DNA from: Anaerolineae bacterium
GTDB lineage: Bacteria; Chloroflexota; Anaerolineae; B4-G1
Assembly (NCBI GenBank): GCA_034437455.1
Contig: DAOTUB010000062.1
Coordinates: 1 to 14,465 of the forward strand
Direction: 5' to 3'
Length of the DNA: 14,465 bases
Notes under the pieces: model-generated
Told to the model about the DNA's origin: nothing
The model's database searches: none
What the model saw: only the letters and a program-made list of their open reading frames with translations
Part shown: in pieces, positions 552-14,336 of the stretch
How the letters are laid out: each line of letters starts with the position of its first letter
Numbering within the stretch: position 1 is the first letter of the stretch
Made by a program: the position numbers and the translations under genes

Positions 552-578
552 ATCACGGTTCCGCAAGAGAACCGTGAT
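552..578 (+). terminator. Perfect 10-bp stem / 7-nt loop hairpin ATCACGGTTC-cgcaaga-GAACCGTGAT. Possibly a terminator for the upstream gene, or a cis-regulatory structure in the leader.
   Basis: Exact reverse-complement arms at 552-561 and 569-578. A TTTT run follows only after about 14 nt (gattttgat, 591-600), so the classic intrinsic-terminator geometry is imperfect. Confidence 0.3.
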
Positions 579-690
579 GGATCCATGATGTGATTTTGAT
601 GTCATATAGAGATAATGTTAACCCCAAACGGGGGTGCTATGATATACGTGCGTCTTTTATAATTTCCCGCCGCATTTTTGCCTTGCCGAT

Positions 691-3018: not shown

Positions 3019-6000
3019 AGAACCGCTAAGGGTAGTACTGATAGACGACGAGCAAAGCCTGCGCGAGCCGTTAGCCAAGCGCCTACGAGACAAGTACAAC
3101 TATCACGTCGATGCTGCCGCCGATGCCCGTCAAGCCTGGCAGTTGATTACCGAGGCCAGTTCACCTTACGATGTGGCTCTAATCGACGATATGTTGACAC
3201 CTCAGGCCCAAGTTGAACCCCAACTGATTGGCATCGACCTTACACGCCGGATCAGAGAAGACCATCCCGAGACAGAATGCATCCTCTTCACCGGGTGGGG
3301 TATGGAGCGGGCGCTAGAGGGACTACGCGCCGGCGCGTACCGCTACCTGTCCAAGCCGATCAACATGGAAGAACTAGGCATGACCATCCGTATGGCAGCG
3401 GAGCATCGCCGGCTCAAACAGCAACTGGAAACCACCCGCCAGGAGAAAAAATGGCTACAGACGTTCCTGGAAATCGGTCGGGCAACGACTTCTGTCCTGG
3501 AATTGGATGAGGTTTTGGAACATGTCCATGCACAAATCAGTCTCCTTATGGATGCTTCTTGTATGGACGTCGTCCTATATGACAGTGCCAATCAAACGCT
3601 CAAGTTCGAGTTGGGCTATGACAAAGGGGTCAAGGAGACGAGATGGGAGCGCCCATTCACCGCAGACCATGGATTGACCGATTTGGTGATTCAACATCGT
3701 CACCCGCTGCTGATCAGAGATTATAAAAAAGAAACCCCTCCCGTTCTCGCCTATCAGCGTGGCGAAATGAGCCGTTCGTGGCTGGGCGTCCCCCTGATCG
3801 CGCGCGACCAGGTCATCGGGGCCATCACGGTGCAAAGCTATACACCGCACAAATTCGACGAGACGGATCAGCAAATCCTGGATACGGTGGCCAACCACAT
3901 AGCCAGCGCCATCCAAAACGCTCAATTATTCTCTGAACTGGTCAAGACCCAAAAGTGGCGCGAAGCGCTCATCAACAACACCCTAGATGCGGTGATCGCT
4001 ATTGACCAGGGCAAACGAGTGACGGTCTTTAACCAGCGCGCTGAACAGATGTTTGGCTGGCATGCGCGAGAAATCATAGGGCAGCCGGTCACCCAATTAC
4101 ATATGAGTACGGGAAAGGCCAAAGAGATCTTTGACACGGTAAACCATGAAGGAGAGATCTCGAGTCTGGAAGTAGAACTAAGACATCGGGACGGTACCGC
4201 TATCCCGGCGCGGCTTTCAGCAACGCGGATCAAAGACAGCAACGGTCATCCCATCGGGCAAGCGCGGTTTATGCGTGATTTACGCCAGGTCAACCTGTTG
4301 GAAGAACGGCTGCGGGCTTTGATCCGAGGAAATCGGGTCATTAACAGCAGTCTGGAATTAGAGCAAGTACTCAACCAGGTCATCCAAGCTGCACTAGAAG
4401 CTTTCCCGATGGCACAAGGGGGTGTTATTCACCTGTATGATAAACACAGCAGTGTATTGCGCCTCCAAGCAAATACTTTCAGTTACAGCCCTTCAGCCAT
4501 CGAGGCGTTGCACATGAAGCCCGGTGAAGGCATTGCCGGTTGGGTCTATATGCGCGGACAGCCCGTGGTGATCCCAGATGCACACCAGGATGAGCGTTAC
4601 AAGCTGATCGCCCATCCGGAAATCGCTCCCCACAAACCTATGGTGTGCGTACCCCTCAAAGTGAGAGATCAAGTACTTGGAACACTATCGCTCAACACAG
4701 TAGAGACCGGCAACACCTTTCAAGCCGAGGACCTGGGATTACTTTCCACATTTGCCGATCAGGCGGCTGTCGCCATCAACAACGCCCGCTTTTTTAGGGA
4801 ACAGGACCGCCGCCAGCAACTCTTGACCAGGCTGAACGAAGCGTCACGGCACATCCGTGCGGAAAAACCAATCCCCAAGCTCTTGCACGAAATCGTTCGC
4901 CAGGCGGTCCGGTTGGTCGACTGTTCGGCAGGCGCGCTGTTCCTCAACCGCCCCCACGTCAAGGAACTAGAATTACAAGTGACCTATGAACTACCCACCG
5001 AATTGGTTGGCAGTCATCTATCGCACACCGAAGGCTTGGTCGGTTTAGTTGCACGAACTGGCAAGTCCAAATTCATACGCAATTACTCAACATGGTCAAG
5101 ACCCACAGTGCTCTTTGAACCCTATAACTTTGAAAGCGTCGCTGGAATCCCTCTCAAACAAGCCGGCGAGGTACAAGCGGTCTTGCTCGTCGCTGACCAG
5201 ACCGGCACTCCGGCGCATCTGCAGCCGTCCGACCTGGAGATACTGGAGCGCCTGGCGGCACAGGCCGCTATCGAACTCGAGACCTCTCTATTGATGAGCC
5301 GAGAACAACGCGTGGCCAGTCAATTAGGTATCCTGCACCAAATCAGCGATTACATACAAGCAGCCAGAGACCTGGACAAAGTGTTGCACGTCGTCCTGAC
5401 GGGCGTGACGGCGGGTTATGGTCTGGGCTTTAATCGTGCGGCGCTGTTGCTGCTAGATGAGCGCCAGGAACACCTGGTGGGACGCATGGGCATCGGCCAA
5501 CTGGAGGAACCAGCAGCGCAACAAGACTGGGAGCAACACCACAAGCACAAATTAGAGGATTTTCAAAGATACCTCGAACTGTTGGAAAAGGACGCCCTGC
5601 CGTTGACGCCGGTGGGAGAGAAAATCCGCGACATCAGGCTGCCCCTCACGCCTCACGTCTGTGGCATCCTCATGCGGGTGATGCGCCAGCAACAGCACCT
5701 ACTCCTGACTCTAGAGGAATTAAACGAACTACCAGGCAGCTTTGTCAAGGTTTTCGACCCGGCACAGCCAATCATCGTTGCGCCCCTGCTGGCGCGCGGA
5801 GCGGTCATCGGACTGCTCATCGCCGATAACAAGTTCACTGCGTCGCCCATCACGCCGGAGGACACAGAGGCACTGCTGACCTTTGCCAACACGGCCGCGA
5901 TCGCCATCAGCAACGCACAACTTTACCACGAAACTCGGGTCGCACGAGAGCGGTTGCGCAGCTTTTACGAGGCCAGCAACGCCCTGGTCTCGTCCCAGGA

Positions 6001-9000
6001 TCCCGAACAAGTGCTCCGAAAAATCGTCGAACAAGCTCACCAGACGGCCAGCTCGGCCTGGACCGGCCTGATCTTGATCGACAAGGCTGGACAGGCACAA
6101 AAACTGGTCACGATGGGAATAGACGAGTACGGCGGATTTACCGTTCGGCCCGACGGGATCTCGATGCAGGCTATGTGCAGCGACCAAGCCCAAATCATCG
6201 AGGATGTCCGGGCAGAACGCGACCGCGTCAACCCAGGTTTGCTGCGCGACGGCATTGGCGCCGCTTTGTGTTTGCCCCTCTCCCTGCAAGAAAACCACTT
6301 TGGTGTGATGTGGCTGCACTATGCCATGCCGCGCCATTTCCCCATCAGTGAGGTTGAAGCCTTGCAGCTCTACGTCAATCAGGCGGCCATCGCTTACGAT
6401 GCTGCCCGACGTATGCAGCAGCTAGAAAACATGCGACGAGCGGCCGAGGCACTGGCTGGCGCTTCTAGCATAGCGGCAGTGCTCAAGCAAATAGCCGAAA
6501 GCGCCAGGATTGTCCTGAATGCCGACTCGTCCGTCGTCTGGCCGTACGATCACGAGAGACGCACCTTTTTGCCCGCCGAGCTAGAGACGGCCGGCATTTC
6601 ACCCGAGCTAGTCGAACAATTTCGAGATGTCGAACCTCAACCAGAAGGTACAACGGAAACAGTTTTGCATTTAGGGTGGATTGGCGTCTCGGACGTCGAC
6701 CAGGAGGTGCACCCCTTCCTGGGTCCCCCTGACAGAGGCTTGCGTGGGGCGATCACCGTCCAATCCTTCCAAGGGATCGCTTTACGGGCGGGCGACGAAA
6801 TTCTGGGCGTGCTGTACGCAGACTATGAAAGGCCGCGTAGCTTTAATAAAGCGGACCGCCGGCTGGCTGAAACCTTTGCCACTCACGCTTCCCTGGCCCT
6901 CAAGAAAGCCAGACTGCTGGACCAAATCAGCCAAGTGAGAGACACAGCCAAAGCCGTGGCCGAAGTCAGCATCCTGGAGAAACTAGCAAGTACGCTAGAC
7001 TCGATTACGCGGGGGACTTGCAAAACGCTCAACTGCGATGCCGTCACCCTCTACACTTTTGATCAGCGCAAAGACCAAATCGGGTTTCCCCCAACGGTGA
7101 TAGGGATACGAGACACGAAACAAGTCCTCGAGTTAGGCTTTGTGGCAAGGAACTCGGTTGTCGGCAAAATACTAGACTTGGGTCAAGTGCATGTGGCCGA
7201 AGACGCTCCTTCCGATCCCATCATGGGCGGGGTGTTTGTCAAACGTGAGGGTATCAAATCATCGCTCGGCGTCCCACTCCAGGTCGGCGACCAAAAAGTA
7301 GGGGTGATGTTTGTGAACTATCGCACCCCGCACCGTTTTACCGGTGAAGAACTGACCAACATCAAGCTCTTTGCGACCCAGGCTGCCATCGCCATCCGCA
7401 ACGCTCGGCTCATAGACGATATTTTCCACCGCAACATTCAGCTCCAGACCGTCACCGAGGTCTCCAAGTCAACCAGCACCCTTCTCGCCCCCGAAGCATT
7501 GATGCACCAGGCAGTCAACCTGATTCGAGAGCGCTTTGAACTCTACTATGTGGGTCTATTTTTAACCGATGAAAGCAGCAAGCATGCAGTATTGCGAGCC
7601 GGCACCGGTGACGCGGGTCAAAGAATGCTCACAGATGGCTACAAGCTAGAGATCGATGATCACTCGATGATTGGATGGAGCATCAACAACGCCCAACCAC
7701 GTATCGCGCTCGACATCGACAAAGAAAAAATCCGCTTCAACAACCCTCACCTGCCCGAGACTCACTCCGAGCTGGCGCTGCCGCTGATCAGCCGTGGTCG
7801 CTGCATCGGTGCCCTGACGGTGCAAAGCACCAGGCCAGATGCCTTTTCCTCTGAAGACGTCGCCGTGCTGCAAACGATGGCCGATCAATTGGCCATCGCC
7901 ATCGAGAACGCTCAGCTATATCGAGAAGAAACAGAACAGCTCCAGGAATCCCAGGCCCTGCAAAAAATAGCGATCTCTCTCGCCGGTAGCCTTGAGCTTG
8001 GTGAAGTGTTGAACCACGTGATGCAGGCAGCGATGGGCTTTACCGAAACAGATTCTGGCACCATCTTGTTGTGGAACGCAGAACAAGAAAATTTCACCTA
8101 CACACTCACCACAACGGGGCCAGAACGAACCCTACAGGTATATACCAGCCAAACCCGCGAGGAAGGCATAGCCCGGTCAATCATTGAGGAGCAAAAGACG
8201 GTCATCATTTCCAACGCCCAGGATGACCCCCGGATCAATCCCATTGCGATTGAAAAAGGCCGACGAGCGCTCATCGGCACTCCACTGGTGAGCCGCGAAG
8301 AAGTAATCGGCGTACTCTATGTAAGCAGCTTGGAACCCCGCCAGTTCCTTGCACAACAAGTGAGCTTGTTAAAAAGCCTGGCTAGCCAGGCTGCAGTGGC
8401 CATTGAAAGAGCGCGACAACACAAAGAGTTAAAAGAAACCAAAAGCGTCATCGGTGCCAGGACAGCACTGGCATGGATGGGGATGACCAGTAGCGCCTGG
8501 CGTCACACCATCGAAAAGCATTCCCTGACCATACGGGAGCAAGCACAACTCCTGCGCCAAGACTGGGAAAAAGTGATGCCGCATTCTCAAAAGCTCAAAG
8601 CCCAGGACCGCATCGCGATGATTGAGCGATTGACGACGCAAATCCTGCAAAAACCGATCACACCACCCCTTTCCAGCGAATCCGGTGTTCAGTTGGTATC
8701 GCTGACCACGCTGGTCAGCGAGCGTGCTAGACAATTATGGCAAAATGACCCCTACAAAAAGACCAAGCTCCAACTGGACTTGCAACTACCGGAGGAAGCG
8801 GCGGTCCGCACTAGCCCTGAATGGTTGCGACGGGCTTTTGATATCTTGGTGGACAATGCGGTGAATGCCGTTACAGACTGTCCTGTGCGCGAGATTACTA
8901 TCGGCACCAAAGCTTACAGCTCGGGAGTCAAGGTTTTCGTGTCGGACACTGGACCGGGCATCCCAGACGAGATGCAAGACAAAATCGGCCTTGAGGCGAT

Positions 9001-9172
9001 AGAGAAACCCAAAGATGCCAAAGGGCTCGGTATGGGGCTACTAATGGCCCACGTTATTGTACAAACTTATGGGGGGAAAATTTGGCTTGATTGCACCGGA
9101 CCCGAGGGCACGACCATGTCCATCTGGCTCCCCTTGGAAGCCCGACCCTCAGAGGGAGAGCAGACCTCATGA
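3011..9172 (+). CDS. Giant multi-sensor hybrid histidine kinase (2053 aa): N-terminal REC, GAF1, PAS, GAF2 through GAF9, divergent HisKA, HATPase_c. ATG 3011 overlaps the upstream stop (TGA 3016-3018) by 8 nt; SD GAGGAG at 2996-3001.
   Basis: - REC: VVLIDDEQ, VALIDDML, ILFTGW, LSKP.
- PAS: TLDAVIAIDQGKRVTVFNQRAEQMFGWHAREIIGQP at about nt 3950-4290.
- Nine GAF-like units, each closing with the helix motif (F/L)A-x-QAA(I/V)AI-x-NA(R/Q)L(Y/F/I). The nine closing motifs are:
  1. ANHIASAIQNAQLF
  2. ADQAAVAINNARFF
  3. AAQAAIELETSLL
  4. ANTAAIAISNAQLY
  5. NQAAIAYDAARR
  6. ATHASLALKKARLL
  7. ATQAAIAIRNARLI
  8. ADQLAIAIENAQLY
  9. ASQAAVAIERARQ
- Divergent H-box: LAWMGMTSSAWRHTIEKH, which aligns to LAxxGxxAxxxAHEIxNPL.
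- HATPase: N box FDILVDNAVNAV, G1 DTGPGI, G2 KGLGMGLLMAH. Confidence 0.9.
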   Translation: MHEEPLRVVLIDDEQSLREPLAKRLRDKYNYHVDAAADARQAWQLITEASSPYDVALIDDMLTPQAQVEPQLIGIDLTRRIREDHPETECILFTGWGMERALEGLRAGAYRYLSKPINMEELGMTIRMAAEHRRLKQQLETTRQEKKWLQTFLEIGRATTSVLELDEVLEHVHAQISLLMDASCMDVVLYDSANQTLKFELGYDKGVKETRWERPFTADHGLTDLVIQHRHPLLIRDYKKETPPVLAYQRGEMSRSWLGVPLIARDQVIGAITVQSYTPHKFDETDQQILDTVANHIASAIQNAQLFSELVKTQKWREALINNTLDAVIAIDQGKRVTVFNQRAEQMFGWHAREIIGQPVTQLHMSTGKAKEIFDTVNHEGEISSLEVELRHRDGTAIPARLSATRIKDSNGHPIGQARFMRDLRQVNLLEERLRALIRGNRVINSSLELEQVLNQVIQAALEAFPMAQGGVIHLYDKHSSVLRLQANTFSYSPSAIEALHMKPGEGIAGWVYMRGQPVVIPDAHQDERYKLIAHPEIAPHKPMVCVPLKVRDQVLGTLSLNTVETGNTFQAEDLGLLSTFADQAAVAINNARFFREQDRRQQLLTRLNEASRHIRAEKPIPKLLHEIVRQAVRLVDCSAGALFLNRPHVKELELQVTYELPTELVGSHLSHTEGLVGLVARTGKSKFIRNYSTWSRPTVLFEPYNFESVAGIPLKQAGEVQAVLLVADQTGTPAHLQPSDLEILERLAAQAAIELETSLLMSREQRVASQLGILHQISDYIQAARDLDKVLHVVLTGVTAGYGLGFNRAALLLLDERQEHLVGRMGIGQLEEPAAQQDWEQHHKHKLEDFQRYLELLEKDALPLTPVGEKIRDIRLPLTPHVCGILMRVMRQQQHLLLTLEELNELPGSFVKVFDPAQPIIVAPLLARGAVIGLLIADNKFTASPITPEDTEALLTFANTAAIAISNAQLYHETRVARERLRSFYEASNALVSSQDPEQVLRKIVEQAHQTASSAWTGLILIDKAGQAQKLVTMGIDEYGGFTVRPDGISMQAMCSDQAQIIEDVRAERDRVNPGLLRDGIGAALCLPLSLQENHFGVMWLHYAMPRHFPISEVEALQLYVNQAAIAYDAARRMQQLENMRRAAEALAGASSIAAVLKQIAESARIVLNADSSVVWPYDHERRTFLPAELETAGISPELVEQFRDVEPQPEGTTETVLHLGWIGVSDVDQEVHPFLGPPDRGLRGAITVQSFQGIALRAGDEILGVLYADYERPRSFNKADRRLAETFATHASLALKKARLLDQISQVRDTAKAVAEVSILEKLASTLDSITRGTCKTLNCDAVTLYTFDQRKDQIGFPPTVIGIRDTKQVLELGFVARNSVVGKILDLGQVHVAEDAPSDPIMGGVFVKREGIKSSLGVPLQVGDQKVGVMFVNYRTPHRFTGEELTNIKLFATQAAIAIRNARLIDDIFHRNIQLQTVTEVSKSTSTLLAPEALMHQAVNLIRERFELYYVGLFLTDESSKHAVLRAGTGDAGQRMLTDGYKLEIDDHSMIGWSINNAQPRIALDIDKEKIRFNNPHLPETHSELALPLISRGRCIGALTVQSTRPDAFSSEDVAVLQTMADQLAIAIENAQLYREETEQLQESQALQKIAISLAGSLELGEVLNHVMQAAMGFTETDSGTILLWNAEQENFTYTLTTTGPERTLQVYTSQTREEGIARSIIEEQKTVIISNAQDDPRINPIAIEKGRRALIGTPLVSREEVIGVLYVSSLEPRQFLAQQVSLLKSLASQAAVAIERARQHKELKETKSVIGARTALAWMGMTSSAWRHTIEKHSLTIREQAQLLRQDWEKVMPHSQKLKAQDRIAMIERLTTQILQKPITPPLSSESGVQLVSLTTLVSERARQLWQNDPYKKTKLQLDLQLPEEAAVRTSPEWLRRAFDILVDNAVNAVTDCPVREITIGTKAYSSGVKVFVSDTGPGIPDEMQDKIGLEAIEKPKDAKGLGMGLLMAHVIVQTYGGKIWLDCTGPEGTTMSIWLPLEARPSEGEQTS

Positions 9173-9558
9173 AGCACTTCTTATTGGTCGGTAACCCATC
9201 AGGCTCGCAGTGGTCCTCGATCTTGCGTCGGGCACTGTCTACTTTGGGTGAGCTGCGCATCGCGTCTGAAGCAAACGCCCCACGGGAAATCTCGAGAAAA
9301 AATTACGATGCGATCATTGTAGACGCCGGCGCCGTTCAAGACGTTAACGCTCTGACATCTCTTCTGCGTCAAGACCACCCTCAGGCACGCGTGATCGTTG
9401 CCACCGCGTCTCCCACCTGGAGACGCGCGCGCGAGGCACTCCGTGCCGGCGCCGCCGACTATATCCGCAAATCGCTGGATGAAAAAGAACTCCTGGTCGC
9501 TATCCAGGAAGCGTTATTAGTTCCCCTTCCTGCCTTATCCGAGTCGAAACGGAGGTAA
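9169..9558 (+). CDS. Stand-alone receiver-like protein (129 aa from ATG 9169); atypical or pseudo-receiver. The ATG overlaps the stop of the giant kinase (ATGA at 9169-9172); GGGAGAG lies 12-18 nt upstream. The ORF track's earlier start (9091) would overlap the kinase by 82 nt and seems less likely.
   Basis: CheY-like layout. The conserved acidic pair is replaced in LLVGNPS (DD to GN). The putative phospho-Asp is kept in AIIVDAG, a T/S position in VATAS, and a Lys in IRKS. Seen directly in translation. Confidence 0.6.
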   Translation: MKHFLLVGNPSGSQWSSILRRALSTLGELRIASEANAPREISRKNYDAIIVDAGAVQDVNALTSLLRQDHPQARVIVATASPTWRRAREALRAGAADYIRKSLDEKELLVAIQEALLVPLPALSESKRR

Positions 9559-9560
9559 AT

Positions 9561-11528
9561 ATGGCCCAGTTCACTGTGCTCTTTGTTGATAACGATCAAG
9601 ATTTTCTCAATACCCGCACCGAATTTCTAGAAAATGCCGGGTATCGCGTGATCAAAGCCGCCAGTCTTGATCAGGCCCGAAAGTTCCTAAGTGACGCCCT
9701 GGTCCATCTGGCCATCCTGGATATCCGTATAGTCGACGACGATGATGAAAAGGACATCAGCGGCCTGGTTCTGGCCAAAGAGCCGGCCTACAGCCTCATC
9801 CCCAAAATTATCCTCACGAATTTTCCGAGCTATCAAGATGTGCGGGAGGTTCTAAAACCTGCCTTACAGGGCCTCCCTCCTGCCGTGGACTTTTTATCCA
9901 AAAAGGACGGCCCGACAATCATGATTCAGGCCGTCCACGAGGCCTTTGACAAATATGTACGCCTCAATCAGGACTTGCGCATTGACTGGGGCCCACGGGA
10001 GTCTCTGAATCCTCTCCATCTGGCGCGCCTGCTAAACCCTGACGCGTCTAACGAGGTTTTGGTACAACGCGCCGATGAACTAGAGGACCTCCTGCGCCGC
10101 GTATTCTGTGATTATCAACAGGTCAGAATTGGCCGGTTGCTGTGGCATATCGAACAGCGCCTCTGCGTACCGGTCTTGGCGCAATCTACCCAGCAAGCGA
10201 CCGACGCCCGGATCCTGGTGTGCGGAGAACGGGGACCTATGGAGCAAGAACTGGCGTGTATGCAAGAGCTGGTACCAGAACGCGGGGCAACGTTGGTCAA
10301 CACGACCGATACCGTGCATTTCTGTGCAGCAATCTATGCCCTGGCCGACGCCCAGTTGGAAAGCATACAAACCTTGAGAGAGTTGTTTCAAAGCGGCAAG
10401 AAACGCCCTCTCACAACCGCCCTGGATCGCCTGTTAAAAGACACGCTGGCAGACTGGCACCAACGCGGACAAGCTCTGCAGGAATCGGGCCACTTGATCG
10501 AAGTTTATCGCCGCTGGGCAGAGCTGGACCAGGACGGTACGTCTCGGTCAAAGGTCAAGCGCCACGTAGAGAAACTGGTCCAGATATCCCGCGCGTTAAG
10601 CGCAGTGGAAATTCAAAGCCTTGACCAAGGCATCACATTTCAGTTCCCTCAACAAGCACCGTTGAACTATCCTGACCCCGTGGCTATCCTGTACACCCCA
10701 TTGGAATCCTATTCCGGGCCAATCGTGTGTCGCGTCTCGCCCGGCCGCCTGACGCCTGACAACGTGCTCATAGATGCCCAGCAACGGACCTGGCTAACCG
10801 ACCTGGCTCGCGCCGGACAGGCCCCCCAATGGTGGGATTTCGTGTGCCTGGAGGCGCTGTTTCGCTTTGATCTCAGTCAGGCCCCAGACCTGCTGGCCTG
10901 GCAAGAGTTCGAAGAATGCTTGATTTGCCCTAACGTGCTGCACGATAATCTACGGGAACAGGACGTGGTGCAAGATCTGCGCATGAGCGTGACGCTCATT
11001 GAGCAAATCCGCAGACAAGCCGGCAGTGAAGCCGGACCCGACCCCCGACCTTACTATGCAGGCCTGCTGGCATGGGTCGTCGGCGCCATCGCCCAACACG
11101 ATCCAAGCAGGCTGTATACGCCGGCCGAGCAAATGCGCAACGCACACCTCTTGATGGCCGCCGCTATGCTCGCGAACCGGTTAAGCGAGTCAACAGCCAA
11201 AGTGAACCCTGGTGGGTCGCTGCGCTTGGATGCAGAAGGCACTGTCTGGATGGGAGAACGCCGGGTCGATGAACTGGGAGGACAAGAGCTTGATTTGTTG
11301 CGCCTGCTCTATGAACAACCGGGACAACTCGTCAAGCGCGAGCGCATCATCGAATCTGTATTCGGCGAACCTTATGCCGAGGGCGACAAACACCAGGCAG
11401 GCCGCATTAACTCCCTGATAAGACGTCTGCGCGTCAAGATTGAACCCAATTCCCGCCGTCCGCGCTACCTACTGACCGTCAAGGGCAAAGGTTATCGCTT
11501 GCAGGTAAAGAACAAACCTCAAGAGTAG
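9561..11528 (+). CDS. 655-aa response regulator: N-terminal REC, then a central protein-kinase-like (Hanks/APH-type) domain that is probably a pseudokinase, then a C-terminal OmpR/PhoB-type winged-helix DNA-binding domain. SD GGAGG 7 nt upstream of ATG 9561.
   Basis: - REC: LFVDNDQD, LAILDIR, IILTNF, VLKP.
- Kinase-like catalytic loop: SPGRLTPDNVLID, aa 394-405 (nt about 10740-10775). It aligns to HRDLKPENILID / HGDLHPGNVLV with the catalytic D replaced by R.
- DFG-like motif: WLTDLARAG, aa 411-419.
- APE-like plus DxWSxG-like region: APQWWDFVCLEA.
- wHTH: LLRLLYEQPGQLVKRERIIESVFG ... RINSLIRRLRVKIE ... YLLTVKGKGYRL. Confidence 0.85.
   Translation: MAQFTVLFVDNDQDFLNTRTEFLENAGYRVIKAASLDQARKFLSDALVHLAILDIRIVDDDDEKDISGLVLAKEPAYSLIPKIILTNFPSYQDVREVLKPALQGLPPAVDFLSKKDGPTIMIQAVHEAFDKYVRLNQDLRIDWGPRESLNPLHLARLLNPDASNEVLVQRADELEDLLRRVFCDYQQVRIGRLLWHIEQRLCVPVLAQSTQQATDARILVCGERGPMEQELACMQELVPERGATLVNTTDTVHFCAAIYALADAQLESIQTLRELFQSGKKRPLTTALDRLLKDTLADWHQRGQALQESGHLIEVYRRWAELDQDGTSRSKVKRHVEKLVQISRALSAVEIQSLDQGITFQFPQQAPLNYPDPVAILYTPLESYSGPIVCRVSPGRLTPDNVLIDAQQRTWLTDLARAGQAPQWWDFVCLEALFRFDLSQAPDLLAWQEFEECLICPNVLHDNLREQDVVQDLRMSVTLIEQIRRQAGSEAGPDPRPYYAGLLAWVVGAIAQHDPSRLYTPAEQMRNAHLLMAAAMLANRLSESTAKVNPGGSLRLDAEGTVWMGERRVDELGGQELDLLRLLYEQPGQLVKRERIIESVFGEPYAEGDKHQAGRINSLIRRLRVKIEPNSRRPRYLLTVKGKGYRLQVKNKPQE
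10100..11130 (+). other. Kinase-like (probable pseudokinase) insert domain of the 9561-11528 regulator.
   Basis: Approximate span inferred from the positions of the catalytic-loop and DFG-like motifs. The N-lobe assignment is tentative because no clear Gly-rich loop or VAIK lysine is seen. Confidence 0.45.
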
Positions 11529-11571
11529 GCAAAATCGTCTTGCTGTTATCTTTTTATCACACAAGCAAGAG

Positions 11572-11581
11572 ATGACGTCAT
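11572..11581. promoter_or_regulatory. Perfect 10-bp palindrome ATGACGTCAT (core TGACGTCA).
   Basis: Read directly; self-complementary. Lies 44 nt after the regulator gene's stop and upstream of the SPFH-like gene. Confidence 0.5.
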
Positions 11582-11587
11582 AAAAGT

Positions 11588-11615
11588 GTGACATACCATC
11601 ATCATACAGTGACAC
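11588..11615 (+). promoter_or_regulatory. Direct repeats GTGACAT (11588-11594) and GTGACAC (11609-11615), 21 bp apart (about two helical turns). Candidate binding sites for a winged-helix (OmpR-type) regulator.
   Basis: Read directly. The 21-bp phasing and a TGAC core shared with the neighbouring palindromes are the only evidence. Confidence 0.35.
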
Positions 11616-11616
11616 A

Positions 11617-11658
11617 TTGCAAGGTAACTCCAATCCGGACATCATATTGTCCGGATTG
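11617..11658 (+). promoter_or_regulatory. Putative promoter/operator for the SPFH-like operon. A -35-like TTGCAA (11617-11622) is followed by a perfect 11-bp inverted repeat CAATCCGGACA-tcatat-TGTCCGGATTG (11631-11658). The repeat's AT-rich loop (TCATAT) is the best -10 candidate.
   Basis: The inverted repeat is an exact reverse complement (read directly). The promoter hexamers are weak matches and the spacer is 18-19 bp, so the promoter call is tentative. A palindrome centred on a -10 element is a classic repressor-operator geometry. Confidence 0.4.
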
Positions 11659-11791
11659 TTCATGGGTTAACATGATGCTTGCAAGGCCCTATACACCGCG
11701 GCTTTGCTAGTAAAAATGTGGAGCCCAGCCCATCGCTCCCCACATAGATCAAACTTGCGCGGGTCAGTTTGAAAACGAGAGGAGAATAAAG

Positions 11792-13111
11792 ATGGAAAGT
11801 TACCAAGACGGACATGCGGAACAAGCGAAAGCGCGTCCCATAAAGTATTGGCCGCCCGATGGTTCCAAATTCAATGGCCTGGTAGGTCCTGCTAAACAAA
11901 TGCGGATCCTGCCCCTGGTCCCCAAACTCCACATCGTCCCAGCAGGCACGTGCGCCGTCCTTACATTGCCCGGAGGGAAGCGCACAATCTTTCAAGAAGG
12001 TATGCACGTGCTCAAGGATCTCCCCGCAGGCGTATGCTTGCTGCGCTACGTCGATATGCGGGAACATCGCACCCCCATATCACTCACCGAGGCCTGGTGT
12101 AAAGATGGGTGGCGCGGCAAGCTTGCGCTACAGATTCACTGGCGCGTCAATGACGCGGCACACCTCGTGGATGTCGCCGACCCTGTCGGGAACCTCACCA
12201 CCGCCGCCAAGGCGAGTGTGCGCGCTGTCATCGAGACGACGCCCCACGACAAGCTGATCGGTGGGAGCGACGAGCAAGCCATAGCGACCGATTCCCTGGC
12301 GGCGGCCGTGACCGCTAAACTGCAAGACAATCCGGCCACCAAGGGTATCAAAATCCTGCGCGTCCTGATCACCGAACGCCAAGGTGACACACGCTGCATC
12401 GAGATCGCGCAAGAAAAAACGGTCGAGCACAAGCGGCAGGAACTGGTCTTGCTGCAGGAGGAAACGGAGCGCAAGCGCAAAGAAGAGGAAAGAAAAGTGC
12501 GCATCCGGGAAGCAGAGATCGAGGCCGAAACGGAAGGCCGGCTCGCTGCTATCAAGTGGCAGCAAGTGCAGTTAGAACAGGCAGCGGAACTGAACAAACA
12601 ACATCACGAACGGGCGCTAAAAATCATCGAGGCCTACGCTCAGGTGCTGAGCAAGGCAGCAGAACTCGGACAACTGGAGGCACTCGGTGTCTCCTCGCGT
12701 CGCCGGCCCGAACTCGCCACCGGTGGCTTGGAGAGTATGCTGAACCAAGGGCTGAGCAACTTGCAAAGTGCGCTTCAGGCGCCAACCATCAGCCCGCTTC
12801 CCACGTATGCCAGCTCTTACAATGAAAAAGCCGCCCTGGCCGCGCGCCTCGCGGCCGAGGCTGCCGAGGTGGCCGAACTGGAAGGGGTCAAGCAGTGCTA
12901 CGTAGGCGTGTGCAAGAAAGAAAAGGGTAACACGGTTTTCGTCTGGCTGGATGGCCGACGGTTGAGCATCTGCTGCCCCTTGGACTACCCTCAAACCGCT
13001 CCCAAAGTGCAATGGGCTGACAACGGCCACCACAAAGTGCCGCTCAATTGGTCTGAAGGGATGTCGCTCTCGCACATCGTAGCGGACATCCGGGCAACCG
13101 CCCAAGCCTGA
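11792..13111 (+). CDS. SPFH/band-7 (stomatin/flotillin-like) domain protein, 439 aa. No N-terminal transmembrane helix. Followed by a long ER/K-rich charged helix and a Cys-containing C-terminal tail. SD GAGAGGAG 8-15 nt upstream of the ATG.
   Basis: - The N-terminal 45 aa are hydrophilic.
- SPFH core: HIVPAGTCAVLTLPGGKRTIFQEGMHVL ... LRYVDMREHRTPIS ... CKDGW matches IVPxGxxGVVxxFGK ... PGLHF ... VDLRE ... TKDN.
- Band-7 signature-like ATKGIKILRVLITE.
- Charged helix: QEKTVEHKRQELVLLQEETERKRKEEERKVRIREAEIEAETE.
- Tail: CYVGVCKKEKGNTVFVWLDGRRLSICCPLDYP. Confidence 0.75.
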   Translation: MESYQDGHAEQAKARPIKYWPPDGSKFNGLVGPAKQMRILPLVPKLHIVPAGTCAVLTLPGGKRTIFQEGMHVLKDLPAGVCLLRYVDMREHRTPISLTEAWCKDGWRGKLALQIHWRVNDAAHLVDVADPVGNLTTAAKASVRAVIETTPHDKLIGGSDEQAIATDSLAAAVTAKLQDNPATKGIKILRVLITERQGDTRCIEIAQEKTVEHKRQELVLLQEETERKRKEEERKVRIREAEIEAETEGRLAAIKWQQVQLEQAAELNKQHHERALKIIEAYAQVLSKAAELGQLEALGVSSRRRPELATGGLESMLNQGLSNLQSALQAPTISPLPTYASSYNEKAALAARLAAEAAEVAELEGVKQCYVGVCKKEKGNTVFVWLDGRRLSICCPLDYPQTAPKVQWADNGHHKVPLNWSEGMSLSHIVADIRATAQA

Positions 13112-13139
13112 AAACACTGACTCTATGACGAGGTGATAA

Positions 13140-14336
13140 ATGCAAGAGACACCTTTCATACATACGGCCTACCGTCAAGAGACTCTAGTCGAGTCCGGCT
13201 TGTTCAATCACCTAGGAGTAGCCCACGAGCAGTTGCCCGGCTATCACGCCTTGTTTGCTGCTCGGGTCCTGGTGACGCCCTATGAAATCTTGGCCGAAAG
13301 AAAGTGGGGCATGGTAGAAAGAGATCTGCTAGACGAGGTTCTGGACAGACAGAGGCGCTTTATCGCCAGCCTACACTACATAGATCCTCATTCCACCAGC
13401 CCTGACCCTAGCCTCAAGACGGCAGCGCTGCGCTATGTCGCTCGACCGGAGACGCGGCAAATAGACACGATACTGGTGGGCAAAGTCTTTGCCCACCAGA
13501 TCGACCAGGCTCGTGATATGGCTCTCGCCTGGTACAAGGAAATCGAAGCACTGTTTTCCCGTGACTACAAGCTGCAACCGCTCAAGTCAGAAGAGGAATT
13601 CATAACCCAATCGGGGCAACAACTGCTCAAAAGCATCTCTGAGCCCACACAGACAGAAGTCAGACGCTACGAGATGTTCTTGCCCAGGTCGACCGAACGA
13701 GAAGTAAGGGAAACCCACTATGTCGTGTATCCTTTTATGTGGCATCGAAACGGCATGGATCAAGTATGGCAAGTTATGGCGTCAATGTCAGCACCTGTCA
13801 TACTCAGCGTTATGCTGCGTCCGGCTTATTTGTACGAAGCGGAAGAGCTGCATTTGGCGCGATTTTACGAGGCCACAAAAAATCTCAAGTCCGAACGCGT
13901 CGCCGACCACGTGCTAGGGGAACAAGCCGCGCAGATATACGCCGGATACCTCCGGACCTGGCGCCAACCTTTCCTGGTGCGCGCGCAGGTCACCGCACCG
14001 CAAGGGACCCACCGCGCGCTGGCACGCGCGGTGGGATGTGCACTGTCATACGGCGCGCCGGCCAGTGGCGATGACAGACATAGCCCGTTCCCTGGTTACG
14101 AGTTGATCACACCCACCAAAGAGGACCGCAAGACCGCACGCGACAATGTATGCTGGCTCGAGATGCAAGACTGGGGGACTGACCAAGCTGCACCAGCCTA
14201 TCGTAGGTTTCGATACCTGACCGACTTGAAAGGCGCCCATTGCTTGTTTCGTCTCCCGTTCGTGCCCAAGGCCGGCTTGCCTGGCGCACAATTTGACAAA
14301 TCGTCAACGCCGGACGCAGACTCGAACAATCGATAG
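13140..14336 (+). CDS. Hypothetical protein, 398 aa, no recognisable domain; apparently soluble. Starts 28 nt after the SPFH-like gene's stop with SD GAGG 6 nt upstream, so it is probably co-transcribed.
   Basis: Long ORF with protein-like composition, tightly linked on the same strand. I see no catalytic or structural motif I can name, and no hydrophobic transmembrane segment. Confidence 0.55.
   Translation: MQETPFIHTAYRQETLVESGLFNHLGVAHEQLPGYHALFAARVLVTPYEILAERKWGMVERDLLDEVLDRQRRFIASLHYIDPHSTSPDPSLKTAALRYVARPETRQIDTILVGKVFAHQIDQARDMALAWYKEIEALFSRDYKLQPLKSEEEFITQSGQQLLKSISEPTQTEVRRYEMFLPRSTEREVRETHYVVYPFMWHRNGMDQVWQVMASMSAPVILSVMLRPAYLYEAEELHLARFYEATKNLKSERVADHVLGEQAAQIYAGYLRTWRQPFLVRAQVTAPQGTHRALARAVGCALSYGAPASGDDRHSPFPGYELITPTKEDRKTARDNVCWLEMQDWGTDQAAPAYRRFRYLTDLKGAHCLFRLPFVPKAGLPGAQFDKSSTPDADSNNR

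What the first reader, a model, noticed from the sequence alone, without database searches (positions are those of the whole stretch)
11529..11791. Palindrome- and repeat-dense control region between the regulator gene and the SPFH-like operon
Within 90 bp lie three elements:
- a perfect palindrome ATGACGTCAT (11572-11581);
- two GTGACA(T/C) direct repeats 21 bp apart (11588-11594 and 11609-11615);
- a perfect 11-bp inverted repeat CAATCCGGACA-N6-TGTCCGGATTG (11631-11658). Its loop is the best -10 candidate for a TTGCAA -35 at 11617-11622.

All elements share TGAC/GTCA or GACA/TGTC cores. The density and perfection of the symmetry point to at least one, probably two, dedicated DNA-binding proteins acting here. 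The direct repeats fit a winged-helix dimer such as the adjacent 655-aa regulator. The operator-over-promoter palindrome fits a repressor.
Basis: seen in the sequence. Interest (0 to 1): 0.5.

Follow-up and report, generated by a model that had tools for sequence, protein, structure and literature searches.

The report
Regulator boxes, terminator hairpin, target promoter
The gap between the regulator gene and the SPFH gene is a conserved control module, with likely binding boxes for the neighbouring response regulator, a base-paired hairpin that looks like the operon's terminator, and a promoter-like -10 element; this is an ordinary kind of bacterial wiring, here in an uncharacterised Anaerolineae-type signalling operon.

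Summary
Only the 11-bp inverted repeat exceeds chance (0/2000 shuffles). The 10-bp palindrome (24% of shuffles) and the GTGACA repeats do not.

Nine distinct related loci (seven lineages) share one layout in the ~150 nt after the regulator's stop codon:
- An array of TGTNAY-type hexamers. Its core is a WalR/PhoB-style direct repeat, TGTTAT-N5-TATCAC (11544-11560).
- A hairpin starting 98-114 nt after the stop codon.
- A -10-like TAnnAT hexamer 8-11 nt after the stem (TAACAT, 11668-11673).

A matrix trained only on these intergenic boxes finds the same bipartite box upstream of the operon's first gene in all four loci where that region is held (window 589-610). There it lies 27-28 nt before a -10-like hexamer. 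So the boxes are most likely DNA sites for the operon's own OmpR/PhoB-type regulator.

The hairpin stems covary (7 of 11 pairs) and carry G·U but almost no A·C mispairs. The arm spacing shifts by 1 nt, and T-runs follow the stem in some relatives. That fits an RNA terminator-type hairpin, not a repressor operator. Its loop carries a box-like half-site near -35 of the inferred promoter.

This is a new member of known kinds.

The parts
11533..11538 (+). Hexamer 'box 0' (AATCGT; AATCAT in relatives), 11 nt upstream of DR1 and in phase with the array
   Evidence: Alignment A3: ATCA is conserved in 8 of 9 loci directly after the stop codon.
11544..11565 (+). Bipartite box: DR1 TGTTAT (11544-49), 5-nt spacer, DR2 TATCAC (11555-60) with ACAAG tail. 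Family consensus is TGTGAT-CTTGA-TGTCACATAGG. Proposed site for the operon's wHTH response regulator.
   Evidence: A leave-own-lineage-out matrix ranks this site second in the whole window, behind the operon-upstream copy at 589-610. [quoted passage not shown]
11572..11581 (.). Only the right half, 'box B' CGTCAT (11576-81), is conserved. It lies 21 nt from DR2, in direct orientation.
   Evidence: TCA at 11578-80 is invariant in 9 of 9, the left half varies, and a 10-bp palindrome occurs in 24% of shuffles.
11588..11594 (.). 'Box C' GTGACAT, inverted relative to box B with an 8-nt spacer (ACGTCA-N8-TGACAT, 5 of 6 complementary)
   Evidence: (sequences). The pair is perfect in L016 (ACGTCA/TGACGT) and L017 (ATGTCA/TGACAT). 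GTGAC is kept in 7 of 9 loci. Its role is unknown.
11609..11615 (.). Second GTGACAC copy; not a conserved element
   Evidence: Replaced by GTGGTAA in L014 and TTAAAAA in L001.
11617..11622 (+). TTGCAA, a moderately conserved TTGYRA hexamer. It could be a -35 for a minor alternative promoter with CATCAT (11640-45; 17-nt spacer).
   Evidence: -35-like in 6 sequences (4 of 7 lineages). Not reported by the consensus scan.
11631..11658 (+). Hairpin CAATCCGGACA-TCATAT-TGTCCGGATTG (-18 kcal/mol as RNA). Proposed terminator or insulator hairpin of the signalling operon. The loop plus flanks (CATCATATTG, 11640-49) resembles a DR2 half-site.
   Evidence: same position in 9 of 9 loci; 7 of 11 pairs show double changes, 0 of 500 shuffles reach the score; 95 Watson-Crick, 11 G·U, 1 A·C; the homologous hairpin is flagged as terminator-like in L019 and L016; the loop 10-mer scores in the top 0.15% of window positions against the half-site matrix; no other copy in 152 kb.
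11668..11673 (+). -10-like hexamer TAACAT. Proposed -10 of the promoter for the SPFH / 398-aa gene pair, with an inferred transcription start near 11680.
   Evidence: a hexamer with A2, T6 and at least 4 of 6 matches to TATAAT lies 8-11 nt after the stem in 9 of 9 loci (7 of 7 lineages). It is the only such position across 160 aligned nt. No -35 consensus accompanies it.
11709..11791 (+). SPFH leader: hairpins at 11716-11745 and 11749-11772, a CCATCGCTCCCC stretch (11730-41) complementary to the ribosome-binding site and start codon, and the Shine-Dalgarno sequence GAGAGGAG (11777-84)
   Evidence: 80-93% three-way identity, above that of the flanking coding sequence; predicted folds, with no significant z-score and no covariation available.
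589..643 (+). Operon-upstream copy of the bipartite box (TGTGAT-N5-TGTCATATAG, 589-610), followed after 27 nt by TGcTATGAT (635-643). Inferred autoregulated operon promoter.
   Evidence: best matrix hit in the window, score 17.5; the same arrangement occurs in L017, L019 and L021.
9561..11528 (+). Gene for the 655-aa REC - TCAD9 (kinase-like) - Trans_reg_C regulator, last gene of the signalling operon
   Evidence: Pfam; the wHTH is closest to WalR/YycF/VicR, RpaA, RegX3, MtrA and PhoB; recognition helix RINSL(I/V)RRLR is conserved in 8 of 9 loci.
11792..14336 (+). Downstream target genes: SPFH/Band-7 protein (11792-13111) and its 398-aa partner (13140-14336)

Best explanation
The intergenic region is a composite module that belongs to the upstream signalling operon. 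That operon encodes S1-REC-GAF-HK, REC-PAS-GAFn-HK, REC, and REC-TCAD9-wHTH proteins.

1. Boxes (11533-11594). This stretch is an array of TGTNAY-type hexamers on one face of the DNA helix. Its core is a direct repeat, TGTTAT-N5-TATCAC. I infer that these are DNA sites for the operon's own OmpR/PhoB-type regulator. The regulator would then act both on its own operon promoter (the copy at 589-610) and on the gene(s) placed downstream.

2. Hairpin (11631-11658). This acts as a base-paired RNA on the + strand. It is most likely the intrinsic-terminator or insulator hairpin that ends the operon transcript. It is weakened in the window's clade, where the U-tract has decayed, so some read-through is possible there.

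3. Promoter. A promoter without a -35 consensus follows the hairpin directly (-10 TAACAT 11668-73, start near 11680). The hairpin loop carries a further half-site-like box (CATCATATTG) at about -40 to -31. That is where an OmpR/PhoB-type activator usually substitutes for a -35 element.

4. Leader. The last ~85 nt are the leader of the SPFH mRNA.

What is shown: the elements themselves, their conservation, the covariation, and the duplication of the box at the operon promoter.

What is inferred: which protein binds, whether it activates or represses, the transcription start sites, and whether the hairpin terminates.
For: - Layout: the same arrangement follows the regulator's stop codon in nine distinct loci (seven lineages), although the downstream gene differs: the SPFH pair, a small membrane protein, or a DksA/TraR-type protein.
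- Box duplication: a matrix trained only on the intergenic boxes of other lineages gives as its best non-training hit the operon-upstream region, + strand, in all four loci that include it. These are window 589, L017 1008, L019 974 and L021 3618. There a -10-like hexamer follows 27-28 nt later.
[quoted passage not shown] WalR/YycF/VicR are the closest solved relatives of this wHTH. The recognition helix is conserved in 8 of 9 loci.
- Hairpin:
  - 0 of 2000 shuffles give an 11-bp inverted repeat.
  - It starts 98-114 nt after the stop codon in all loci.
  - 7 of 11 pairs show compensatory changes, and 0 of 500 shuffles reach the covariation score.
  - Pair counts are 11 G·U against 1 A·C.
  - The consensus scan calls the homologous hairpin a terminator in L019 and L016.
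  - It is unique within 152 kb of held loci.
- -10 element: present 8-11 nt after the stem in 9 of 9 loci, and the only such position across 160 aligned nt.
- Loop: the 10-mer scores in the top 0.01-1.9% of all positions in 8 of 9 loci against a leave-own-lineage-out half-site matrix.
Against: - No transcript or binding data exist.
- In the window the hairpin has no canonical U-tract and is not flagged as a terminator. The same holds for L014, L001 and L002.
- A conserved loop sequence is unusual for a plain terminator.
- The main box array lies about 90-145 nt upstream of the inferred start. That is far for direct activation, so the argument depends on the loop half-site.
- The -10 call rests on a degenerate hexamer, and no -35 is present.
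- The G·U versus A·C count is biased by how I extended the helices.
- Only seven independent lineages were available, and the CM alignment did not resolve a 1-nt register shift in three sequences.
- Box B / box C form an inverted pair, which is atypical for OmpR/PhoB-family sites and remains unexplained.
Confidence: 0.55

Rival explanations
1. Leader attenuator. The promoter lies upstream of the hairpin. It is driven by the box array or by TTGCAA-17 nt-CATCAT-like elements. The hairpin is then a regulated terminator, or sits at the start of the SPFH leader, so SPFH expression is set by read-through rather than by a promoter after the hairpin.
For: - At the operon promoter the bipartite box lies 27-28 nt before a -10. 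By analogy the window has TACCAT at 11594-99, which is 28 nt after its box.
- TTGYRA at 11617 is -35-like in 4 of 7 lineages, and the loop CATCAT is -10-like in 4 of 7.
- The U-tract is weak in the SPFH clade.
- The hairpin's 3' arm can alternatively pair with SPFH codons 4-8 (9 of 11).
Against: - No -10-like hexamer is conserved 27-28 nt after the intergenic box (CACCAC in L001, TCGCCC in L002).
- The loop -10 is absent in L001, L015, L021 and L002.
- The only universally conserved -10 lies after the hairpin.
- No antiterminator alternative structure is conserved.
Confidence: 0.15
2. RNA-level element. The ~150 nt after the stop codon form a structured 3' UTR, or a 3'-UTR-derived small RNA, of the signalling operon. 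The 'boxes' would be RNA motifs (RUCAY in loops), perhaps read by an RNA-binding protein such as the S1-domain kinase encoded by the first gene.
For: - As RNA, 11529-11680 folds with z = -4.1.
- Box B / box C can pair, with C-G to U-A and wobble variants.
- In the window's clade DR2 sits in the loop of a 10-bp stem (GUUAUCUUUU/AAGAGAUGAC), which is perfect in L014.
- The length of the region is constant.
- All motif copies lie on the + strand.
Against: - The same bipartite box lies upstream of a conserved -10 at the operon promoter, so that copy is probably not transcribed.
- The additional stems are not conserved outside the window's clade.
- There is no Rfam match.
- The hexamer-N5-hexamer format matches the DNA sites of the regulator's family.
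Confidence: 0.12
3. The 11-bp inverted repeat is a double-stranded DNA operator for a dimeric repressor that covers a promoter (TTGCAA -35, -10 in the loop).
For: - An arm core AGCCGG...CCGGCT is recognisable in most loci.
- TTGCAA-17 nt-CATCAT gives 8 of 12 matches with a correct spacer in the window, L014, L016-like and L017 sequences.
- The palindrome lies close to the promoter elements.
Against: - Every arm substitution is mirrored in the other arm (window T-A, L016 A-T, L015 T-A, L017/L021 A-T). Base pairing predicts this; protein contacts do not.
- G·U mispairs are tolerated.
- The arm-to-arm distance differs by 1 nt in three lineages, and loops range from 3 to 10 nt.
- T-runs follow the stem on the + strand only.
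- No palindrome-binding regulator is encoded in the conserved neighbourhood, and Trans_reg_C proteins typically bind direct repeats.
Confidence: 0.08
4. No function. The elements are chance symmetry in an AT-rich spacer, or a dispersed repeat or mobile-element remnant.
For: The 10-bp palindrome and the GTGACA repeats are at chance level.
Against: - Hairpin, boxes and -10 are conserved in position across seven lineages whose regulators are 45-80% identical.
- The covariance model finds no other copy in 152 kb.
- The minus-strand 64-aa ORF is not conserved.
Confidence: 0.02

Closest known systems
WalR/VicR/YycF-type operators (TGTWAH-N5-TGTWAH) and PhoB pho boxes of OmpR/PhoB-family response regulators
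   Same: - Two hexamers in direct orientation with a 5-nt spacer (11-bp phase), each starting TGT/TRT.
- The site lies 27-28 nt upstream of a -10 at the operon promoter, where no good -35 is present.
- Additional in-phase hexamers are present.
- The cognate regulator carries a Trans_reg_C wHTH whose closest solved relatives are WalR/YycF/VicR.
   Different: - The fourth hexamer position prefers C/G (TGTCAY/TGTGAY) rather than W.
- The regulator has 655 aa, with a kinase-like TCAD9 domain between the REC and wHTH domains.
- One copy of the array lies downstream of the regulator gene, about 100 nt from the inferred target promoter.
- An inverted partner (box C) accompanies box B.
- Binding has not been tested.
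Rho-independent (intrinsic) terminators
   Same: A GC-rich stem-loop about 100 nt after a stop codon on the coding strand, with covarying stems. T-runs follow in L019 (T7), L016, L015 and L021. The consensus scan flags L019 and L016.
   Different: - In the window, L014, L001 and L002 the U-tract is degenerate.
- The loop hexamer T-N-A-Y-R-T is invariant across lineages.
- A -10-like hexamer follows within 8-11 nt, so terminator and promoter overlap.
Palindromic repressor operators overlapping promoters (for example LacI/TetR-type sites)
   Same: Perfect dyad symmetry next to promoter-like hexamers.
   Different: The arm sequence is not conserved and changes by mirrored substitutions. Wobble pairs are tolerated, and spacing and loop length vary. 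No candidate dimeric repressor is encoded in the conserved neighbourhood.
SARP/AfsR-type heptamer repeats (OmpR-type wHTH, 11- or 22-bp spacing)
   Same: Repeated short boxes at 11- and 21-nt spacing on one face of the helix, bound (there) by a multidomain regulator with an OmpR-type wHTH. This comparison comes from my own knowledge and was not checked here.
   Different: The box sequence differs. The regulator here is a phospho-receiver protein with a C-terminal wHTH and no BTAD domain.

Membership tests
OmpR/PhoB-family response-regulator operator (direct-repeat site) | Two similar hexamers in direct orientation at a 10-11 bp phase | tested here: met
   TGTTAT-N5-TATCAC at 11544-60 and TGTGAT-N5-TGTCAT at 589-605. 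Consensus TGTGAT-CTTGA-TGTCACATAGG from 13 sites.
OmpR/PhoB-family response-regulator operator (direct-repeat site) | A cognate regulator with a Trans_reg_C winged helix encoded nearby | tested here: met
   Pfam PF00486, E = 2e-15, at aa 571-647 of the adjacent 655-aa protein. PDB relatives are WalR/YycF/VicR, RpaA, RegX3, MtrA and PhoB.
OmpR/PhoB-family response-regulator operator (direct-repeat site) | Site positioned at or just upstream of the -35 region of a regulated promoter | tested here: inconclusive
   The operon-upstream copy ends 27-28 nt before a conserved -10-like hexamer in 4 of 4 loci. The intergenic array lies about 75-135 nt upstream of the conserved -10. Only the loop half-site (11640-49) sits near -35. 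No start site has been mapped.
OmpR/PhoB-family response-regulator operator (direct-repeat site) | Sequence-specific binding by the regulator | not testable with these tools
   Needs EMSA or footprinting.
Intrinsic (Rho-independent) terminator | Stable GC-rich stem-loop downstream of a stop codon on the same strand | tested here: met
   11-bp stem, -18 kcal/mol, 103 nt after the stop codon. Homologous hairpins of -8 to -25 kcal/mol occur in 9 of 9 loci.
Intrinsic (Rho-independent) terminator | U-rich tract immediately 3' of the stem | tested here: not met
   The window tail TTCATGGG has 3 T in 8 and is not flagged. It reaches 5 T in 8 only if the last three stem pairs are counted as tail. The feature is met in relatives L019 and L016, and by eye in L015 and L021.
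Intrinsic (Rho-independent) terminator | Structure rather than sequence is conserved (covariation) | tested here: met
   7 of 11 pairs show changes on both sides. Covariation score is 0.424 against 0.231 ± 0.035 in shuffles (0 of 500). Slid controls score at most 0.212.
Intrinsic (Rho-independent) terminator | Transcript 3' ends at the U-tract | not testable with these tools
   Needs Term-seq, 3'-RACE or in vitro termination.
Palindromic repressor operator over a promoter | Half-site sequence and half-site spacing conserved among orthologous loci | tested here: not met
   The 5' arms are CAATCCGGACA, CAAGCCGGACA, CAAGATAGATG, GAGAGCCGGCTAT, CAGCCGACCA, AAGCCAGCC, AAAGCTGGTCG, AAGCCGGTT and AGCCGAT. 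The pairing register differs by 1 nt in three loci, and loops range from 3 to 10 nt.
Sigma-70-type promoter | -10 hexamer (TAnnnT) at a conserved position | tested here: met
   TAACAT at 11668-73. Equivalent hexamers occur in 9 of 9 loci, and it is the only such position in the alignment.
Sigma-70-type promoter | -35 hexamer 16-18 nt upstream of the -10 | tested here: not met
   The consensus scan gives no + strand promoter in the window, L019, L015 or L016. The -35 position falls in the hairpin's 3' arm.
Described RNA families (Rfam 15) | Match to a curated covariance model | tested here: not met
   Only two sub-threshold chance hits (E = 2 and 7.9) in 11450-11850.

The most novel reading that the evidence does not exclude
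The module may be a portable 'output socket' of a phosphorelay so far seen mainly in Anaerolineae-type genomes. In this reading the regulator's boxes, the operon terminator and an activator-dependent promoter are fused into one ~150-nt unit, and a regulator half-site sits in the terminator loop. Transcription through the operon, hairpin formation and regulator binding at -35 would then be mechanically coupled. One version has the hairpin splitting a TTGYRA -35-like hexamer from the -10, which come 16-20 nt apart only if the palindrome is looped out. Different membrane-effector cassettes (the SPFH pair, a small membrane protein, a DksA/TraR-like protein) have been plugged in directly after the -10.
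Probability: 0.12. Interest if true: 0.6.

Novelty: new member of a known kind. Interest (0 to 1): 0.35.

Why it matters
The work gives a concrete, testable cis-regulatory code for an uncharacterised family of large response regulators. That code is the box consensus TGTGAT-N5-TGTCAYATAG, found at two places per locus.

The regulators have a REC, kinase-like TCAD9 and wHTH architecture. More than 200 relatives were found, and the few that a source names are mostly labelled Anaerolineae or Anaerolineales.

The work also links these regulators to a very rare SPFH/Band-7 gene pair as their probable direct target.

The box could be used to predict the regulon in complete genomes. The finding also shows that the downstream gene, although it varies between lineages, is wired to the operon through a conserved promoter module.

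Mechanistically this is standard two-component logic. The overlap of terminator, half-site and promoter is a modest curiosity.

Tried and rejected
- Rfam search of 11450-11850 at E up to 10 gave nothing meaningful.
- Dispersed repeat or MITE: covariance model R1 finds only the nine cognate sites in 152 kb. Weak minus-strand hits are the palindromes themselves.
- Minus-strand 64-aa ORF (11469-11663; also called as a gene in L014): absent in L001, L002 and L021 and unrelated elsewhere, so it is not a gene.
- Box C (GTGACA) as a -35: no consistent -10 lies 16-18 nt downstream in the nine loci (read).
- A -10 placed 27-28 nt after the intergenic box, by analogy with the operon promoter: TACCAT in the window, but CACCAC, TCGCCC and TTTGCA in relatives. 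Rejected as a conserved feature.
- A box tied to SPFH rather than to the regulator: SPFH loci that lack the regulator (L006-L013, with a NYN gene upstream) have no strong box upstream of SPFH.
- PADLOC defence models for the regulator, SPFH and the 398-aa partner gave no hits.
- Literature search for TCAD9 / CyanoTRADDas found nothing on this operon.
- Genome and metagenome scans with the SPFH alignment added only three loci. All 12 contig look-ups were then used, so the comparative set could not be enlarged beyond nine distinct sequences.
- The CM realignment (A7) did not introduce the 1-nt register shift needed for L002, L017 and L019. therefore understates pairing (77.8%).
Full report
**1. 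What is in the window**

The 263-nt gap (11529-11791) lies between two genes.
- Upstream is a 655-aa protein with REC, TCAD9 (kinase-like) and Trans_reg_C winged-helix domains (9561-11528).
- Downstream is an SPFH/Band-7 protein (11792-13111), followed by a 398-aa protein with no Pfam match.

Further upstream, on the same strand, lie three more signalling genes:
- an S1-REC-GAF histidine kinase;
- a 2053-aa REC-PAS-GAFx9 histidine kinase;
- a single-domain receiver.

The window equals a whole contig that several public sources hold, and the same locus recurs in a microbial-mat metagenome assembly (L003). Related loci carry Anaerolineae or Anaerolineales labels.

**2. Checking the observation**

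Every element is at the stated coordinates.

I ran 2000 first-order Markov simulations of the region.
- An inverted repeat of at least 11 bp never occurred (0 of 2000).
- A palindrome of at least 10 bp occurred in 24% of simulations.
- Short direct repeats like GTGACA-N-GTGACA occurred in about half.

So only the hairpin is remarkable on its own.

**3. Related loci**

The SPFH protein is rare: 19 hits in the 5.8-billion-protein collection. The regulator family is larger, with 206 hits, and the few that a source names are mostly labelled Anaerolineae or Anaerolineales.

Contig look-ups gave nine distinct loci (seven lineages) in which the regulator is 45-81% identical: the window, L014, L001, L002, L015, L016, L017, L019/L020 and L021.

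The regulator is always the last gene of the same signalling operon. The next gene varies:
- the SPFH pair in the window, L014, L001 and L002, with a distant version in L019;
- a small membrane protein in L015 and L017 (35% identical to each other);
- a 180-aa protein in L021 that has no detected similarity to the other cargo genes;
- a DksA/TraR-type zinc-finger protein in L016.

SPFH homologues without the regulator have a NYN-domain gene upstream instead, and none of the elements described here.

The first ~150 nt of the gap therefore travel with the regulator operon, not with SPFH.

**4. Shared architecture**

After the stop codon, all nine loci show the following in order:
- AATCAT-like 'box 0';
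- a bipartite box, TGTKMN-N5-TRTCAYRTAG (window TGTTAT 11544-49 and TATCAC 11555-60);
- 21 nt later, box B (CGTCAT 11576-81; its TCA is invariant);
- after an 8-nt spacer, the inverted box C (TGACAT 11589-94);
- about 35 poorly conserved nt that include a TTGYRA hexamer (11617);
- a hairpin that starts 98-114 nt after the stop codon;
- 8-11 nt after the stem, a -10-like TAnnAT hexamer (window TAACAT 11668-73).

Within the window's own clade, the least conserved stretch is 11589-11693. The most conserved is the last 85 nt.

**5. The boxes are most likely DNA sites of the operon's own regulator**

I built a 22-nt weight matrix from the intergenic bipartite boxes. For each locus I left out that locus's own lineage, then scanned the whole locus on both strands.

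In all four loci that include the region upstream of the first operon gene, the best hit outside the training site fell in that upstream region, on the + strand:

| Locus | Position | Score | Rank in locus |
|---|---|---|---|
| window | 589-610 | 17.5 | best overall |
| L017 | 1008 | 11.2 | second, after its own intergenic box |
| L019 | 974 | 12.7 | best overall |
| L021 | 3618 | 13.6 | best overall |

In these upstream regions the box is followed, 27-28 nt later, by a -10-like hexamer:
- TGcTATGAT in the window (635-643);
- TATGAT in L017;
- TATAAC in L019;
- TAAAGT in L021.

That copy therefore sits at about -61 to -40 of a probable promoter that lacks a good -35.

The hexamer-N5-hexamer format with TGT starts matches the WalR/VicR consensus TGTWAH-N5-TGTWAH (PMC4168254). 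The regulator's wHTH is closest, among solved structures, to WalR/YycF/VicR, RpaA, RegX3, MtrA and PhoB. Its recognition helix, RINSL(I/V)RRLR, is conserved in 8 of 9 loci. The exception is L021, which also has the most deviant intergenic boxes.

That the regulator binds these boxes is an inference, and no binding was tested.

**6. The hairpin behaves as a base-paired strand, not as a protein operator**

- **Covariation.** The arm core (AGCCGG/CCGGCT) changes by mirrored substitutions in the window (T-A), L016 (A-T), L015 (T-A) and L017/L021 (A-T). On the model-based alignment, 7 of 11 pairs show double changes. The covariation score exceeds all 500 shuffles and all slid controls.
- **Mispairs.** Counting each hairpin in its own register gives 95 Watson-Crick pairs, 11 G·U, 1 A·C and 5 others. 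The G·U excess points to the + strand. This count is biased by how I extended the helices.
- **Geometry.** The arm-to-arm register differs by 1 nt in three lineages, and loops range from 3 to 10 nt.
- **T-runs.** They follow the stem on the + strand in L019 (seven T), L016, L015 and L021. The consensus scan calls L019 and L016 terminators.
- **The window's clade.** In the window, L014, L001 and L002 the T-run has decayed, and the scan does not call a terminator.
- **Uniqueness.** The covariance model finds no further copy in 152 kb, and Rfam has no match.

I conclude that the hairpin is homologous to the intrinsic terminator of the signalling operon. In the window's clade it may be only a weak terminator or an insulator.

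**7. The loop and the promoter**

The loop hexamer keeps T-N-A-Y-R-T in all nine loci. With its flanks (window CATCATATTG, 11640-49) it resembles the second half-site of the bipartite box. Against a leave-own-lineage-out half-site matrix it scores in the top 0.01-1.9% of all positions in 8 of 9 loci.

I scanned the 160-nt alignment without prior assumptions. The only position where all nine sequences carry a -10-like hexamer is 11668 ± 2.

With that -10, the loop half-site lies at about -40 to -31. No -35 consensus is present. This is the usual layout of a promoter that depends on an OmpR/PhoB-type activator. Whether the regulator activates or represses cannot be decided from sequence.

With CATCAT it gives a 17-nt spacer, but that -10 is missing in five sequences. 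I keep it as a minor alternative.

**8. The 3' half**

The stretch 11709-11791 is 80-93% identical among the window, L014 and L001. That is higher than the flanking coding sequence. It contains:
- two small hairpins (11716-45 and 11749-72);
- a CCATCGCTCCCC stretch (11730-41) complementary to the ribosome-binding site and start codon (11777-95).

The folding energy is not unusual (z = -0.5), and no covariation is available. A translational control element is possible but unproven.

**9. Rival explanations**

- **Leader attenuator, with the promoter upstream of the hairpin.** This is possible, but no conserved -10 exists there.
- **RNA-level 3' UTR element.** The 5' half folds well (z = -4.1), and box B / box C could pair. 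However, the second copy of the box lies upstream of a promoter, and the extra stems are specific to the window's clade.
- **Repressor operator.** This is contradicted by the covariation, the wobble pairs and the variable spacing.
- **Chance.** This is excluded by the conservation.
- **Minus-strand 64-aa ORF.** It is not conserved.

**10. Verdict**

The region is a conserved composite of three familiar parts: response-regulator boxes, a terminator-type hairpin and an activator-type promoter. It belongs to an uncharacterised signalling operon, with the SPFH pair as the probable target.

It is a new member of known kinds. Interest is moderate to low (0.35). The main value is a testable box consensus and a regulator-target link.

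Noticed in passing
window 589-643: The operon-upstream region carries the best copy of the bipartite box in the window (TGTGATTTTGATGTCATATAGA). An extended -10, TGcTATGAT, follows 27 nt later. The same arrangement occurs in L017, L019 and L021, which implies autoregulation of the signalling operon.
   Followed up: yes
window 11709-11795: The SPFH leader is more conserved than the coding sequence among the window, L014 and L001. It has two hairpins (11716-45, 11749-72). CCATCGCTCCCC (11730-41) is complementary to the Shine-Dalgarno sequence GGAG and to GATGG around the start codon, so translational sequestration is possible.
   Followed up: partly
window 11630-11642 vs 11803-11815: The hairpin's 5' arm (CCAATCCGGACAT) resembles SPFH codons 4-8 (CCAAGACGGACAT; 12 of 13 identical in L014). 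The 3' arm could therefore pair with the start of the coding region instead (9 of 11). This is seen in one clade only and may be chance.
   Followed up: no
window 691-11528 and loci L014-L021: A conserved operon encodes S1-REC-GAF-HK, REC-PAS-GAFn-HK, REC, sometimes REC-CyanoTRADDas_TM, and REC-TCAD9(kinase-like)-wHTH. An S1 RNA-binding domain on a histidine kinase, and a kinase-like domain inside a response regulator, are both unusual and uncharacterised.
   Followed up: partly
window 11792-14336; L006, L008-L010, L012, L013: The SPFH protein family is very rare (19 hits in 5.8 billion proteins). It is always followed by a ~370-400-aa partner with no Pfam match. Outside the regulator loci, a NYN-domain gene overlaps its start. 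There are no PADLOC hits.
   Followed up: partly
L015 7298-7942, L017 12283-12843, L016 7215-7793, L021 12202-12744: The gene plugged in after the conserved promoter module differs between lineages. L015 and L017 carry a small N-terminal-TM protein (35% identical to each other), L016 a DksA/TraR zinc-finger protein, and L021 a 180-aa protein. Sequence similarity between loci ends just after the -10-like hexamer.
   Followed up: partly
L019 12150-12353 (L020 equivalent): A 67-aa ORF rich in CxxC pairs (zinc-ribbon-like: CPNCGH...CPKC...CQRC...CPHC) lies between the conserved promoter module and the distant SPFH-like gene.
   Followed up: no
window 11617-11624 and 11679-11686: TTGCAAGG occurs twice, 62 nt apart, on either side of the hairpin and -10. 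The second copy sits at the inferred transcription start and is kept in L014. Its meaning is unknown.
   Followed up: no
window 11545-11576: In the window's clade, DR1 and the left half of the 'palindrome' can pair as RNA (GUUAUCUUUU/AAGAGAUGAC, which is perfect in L014), placing DR2 in a 12-nt loop. This is not conserved in the other lineages or in the operon-upstream copy.
   Followed up: partly
L003 8906-10648: A longer metagenome contig that carries the same locus shows what follows the 398-aa gene: a DDE transposase (DDE_Tnp_1_6) on the opposite strand, then a SUFU-domain protein. L002 has integrase genes at the equivalent place. The cargo end of the locus borders mobile elements.
   Followed up: no
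window 554-576: An 8-bp hairpin, CACGGTTC-N7-GAACCGTG, lies just upstream of the operon box, with no T-run. It was not examined in relatives.
   Followed up: no
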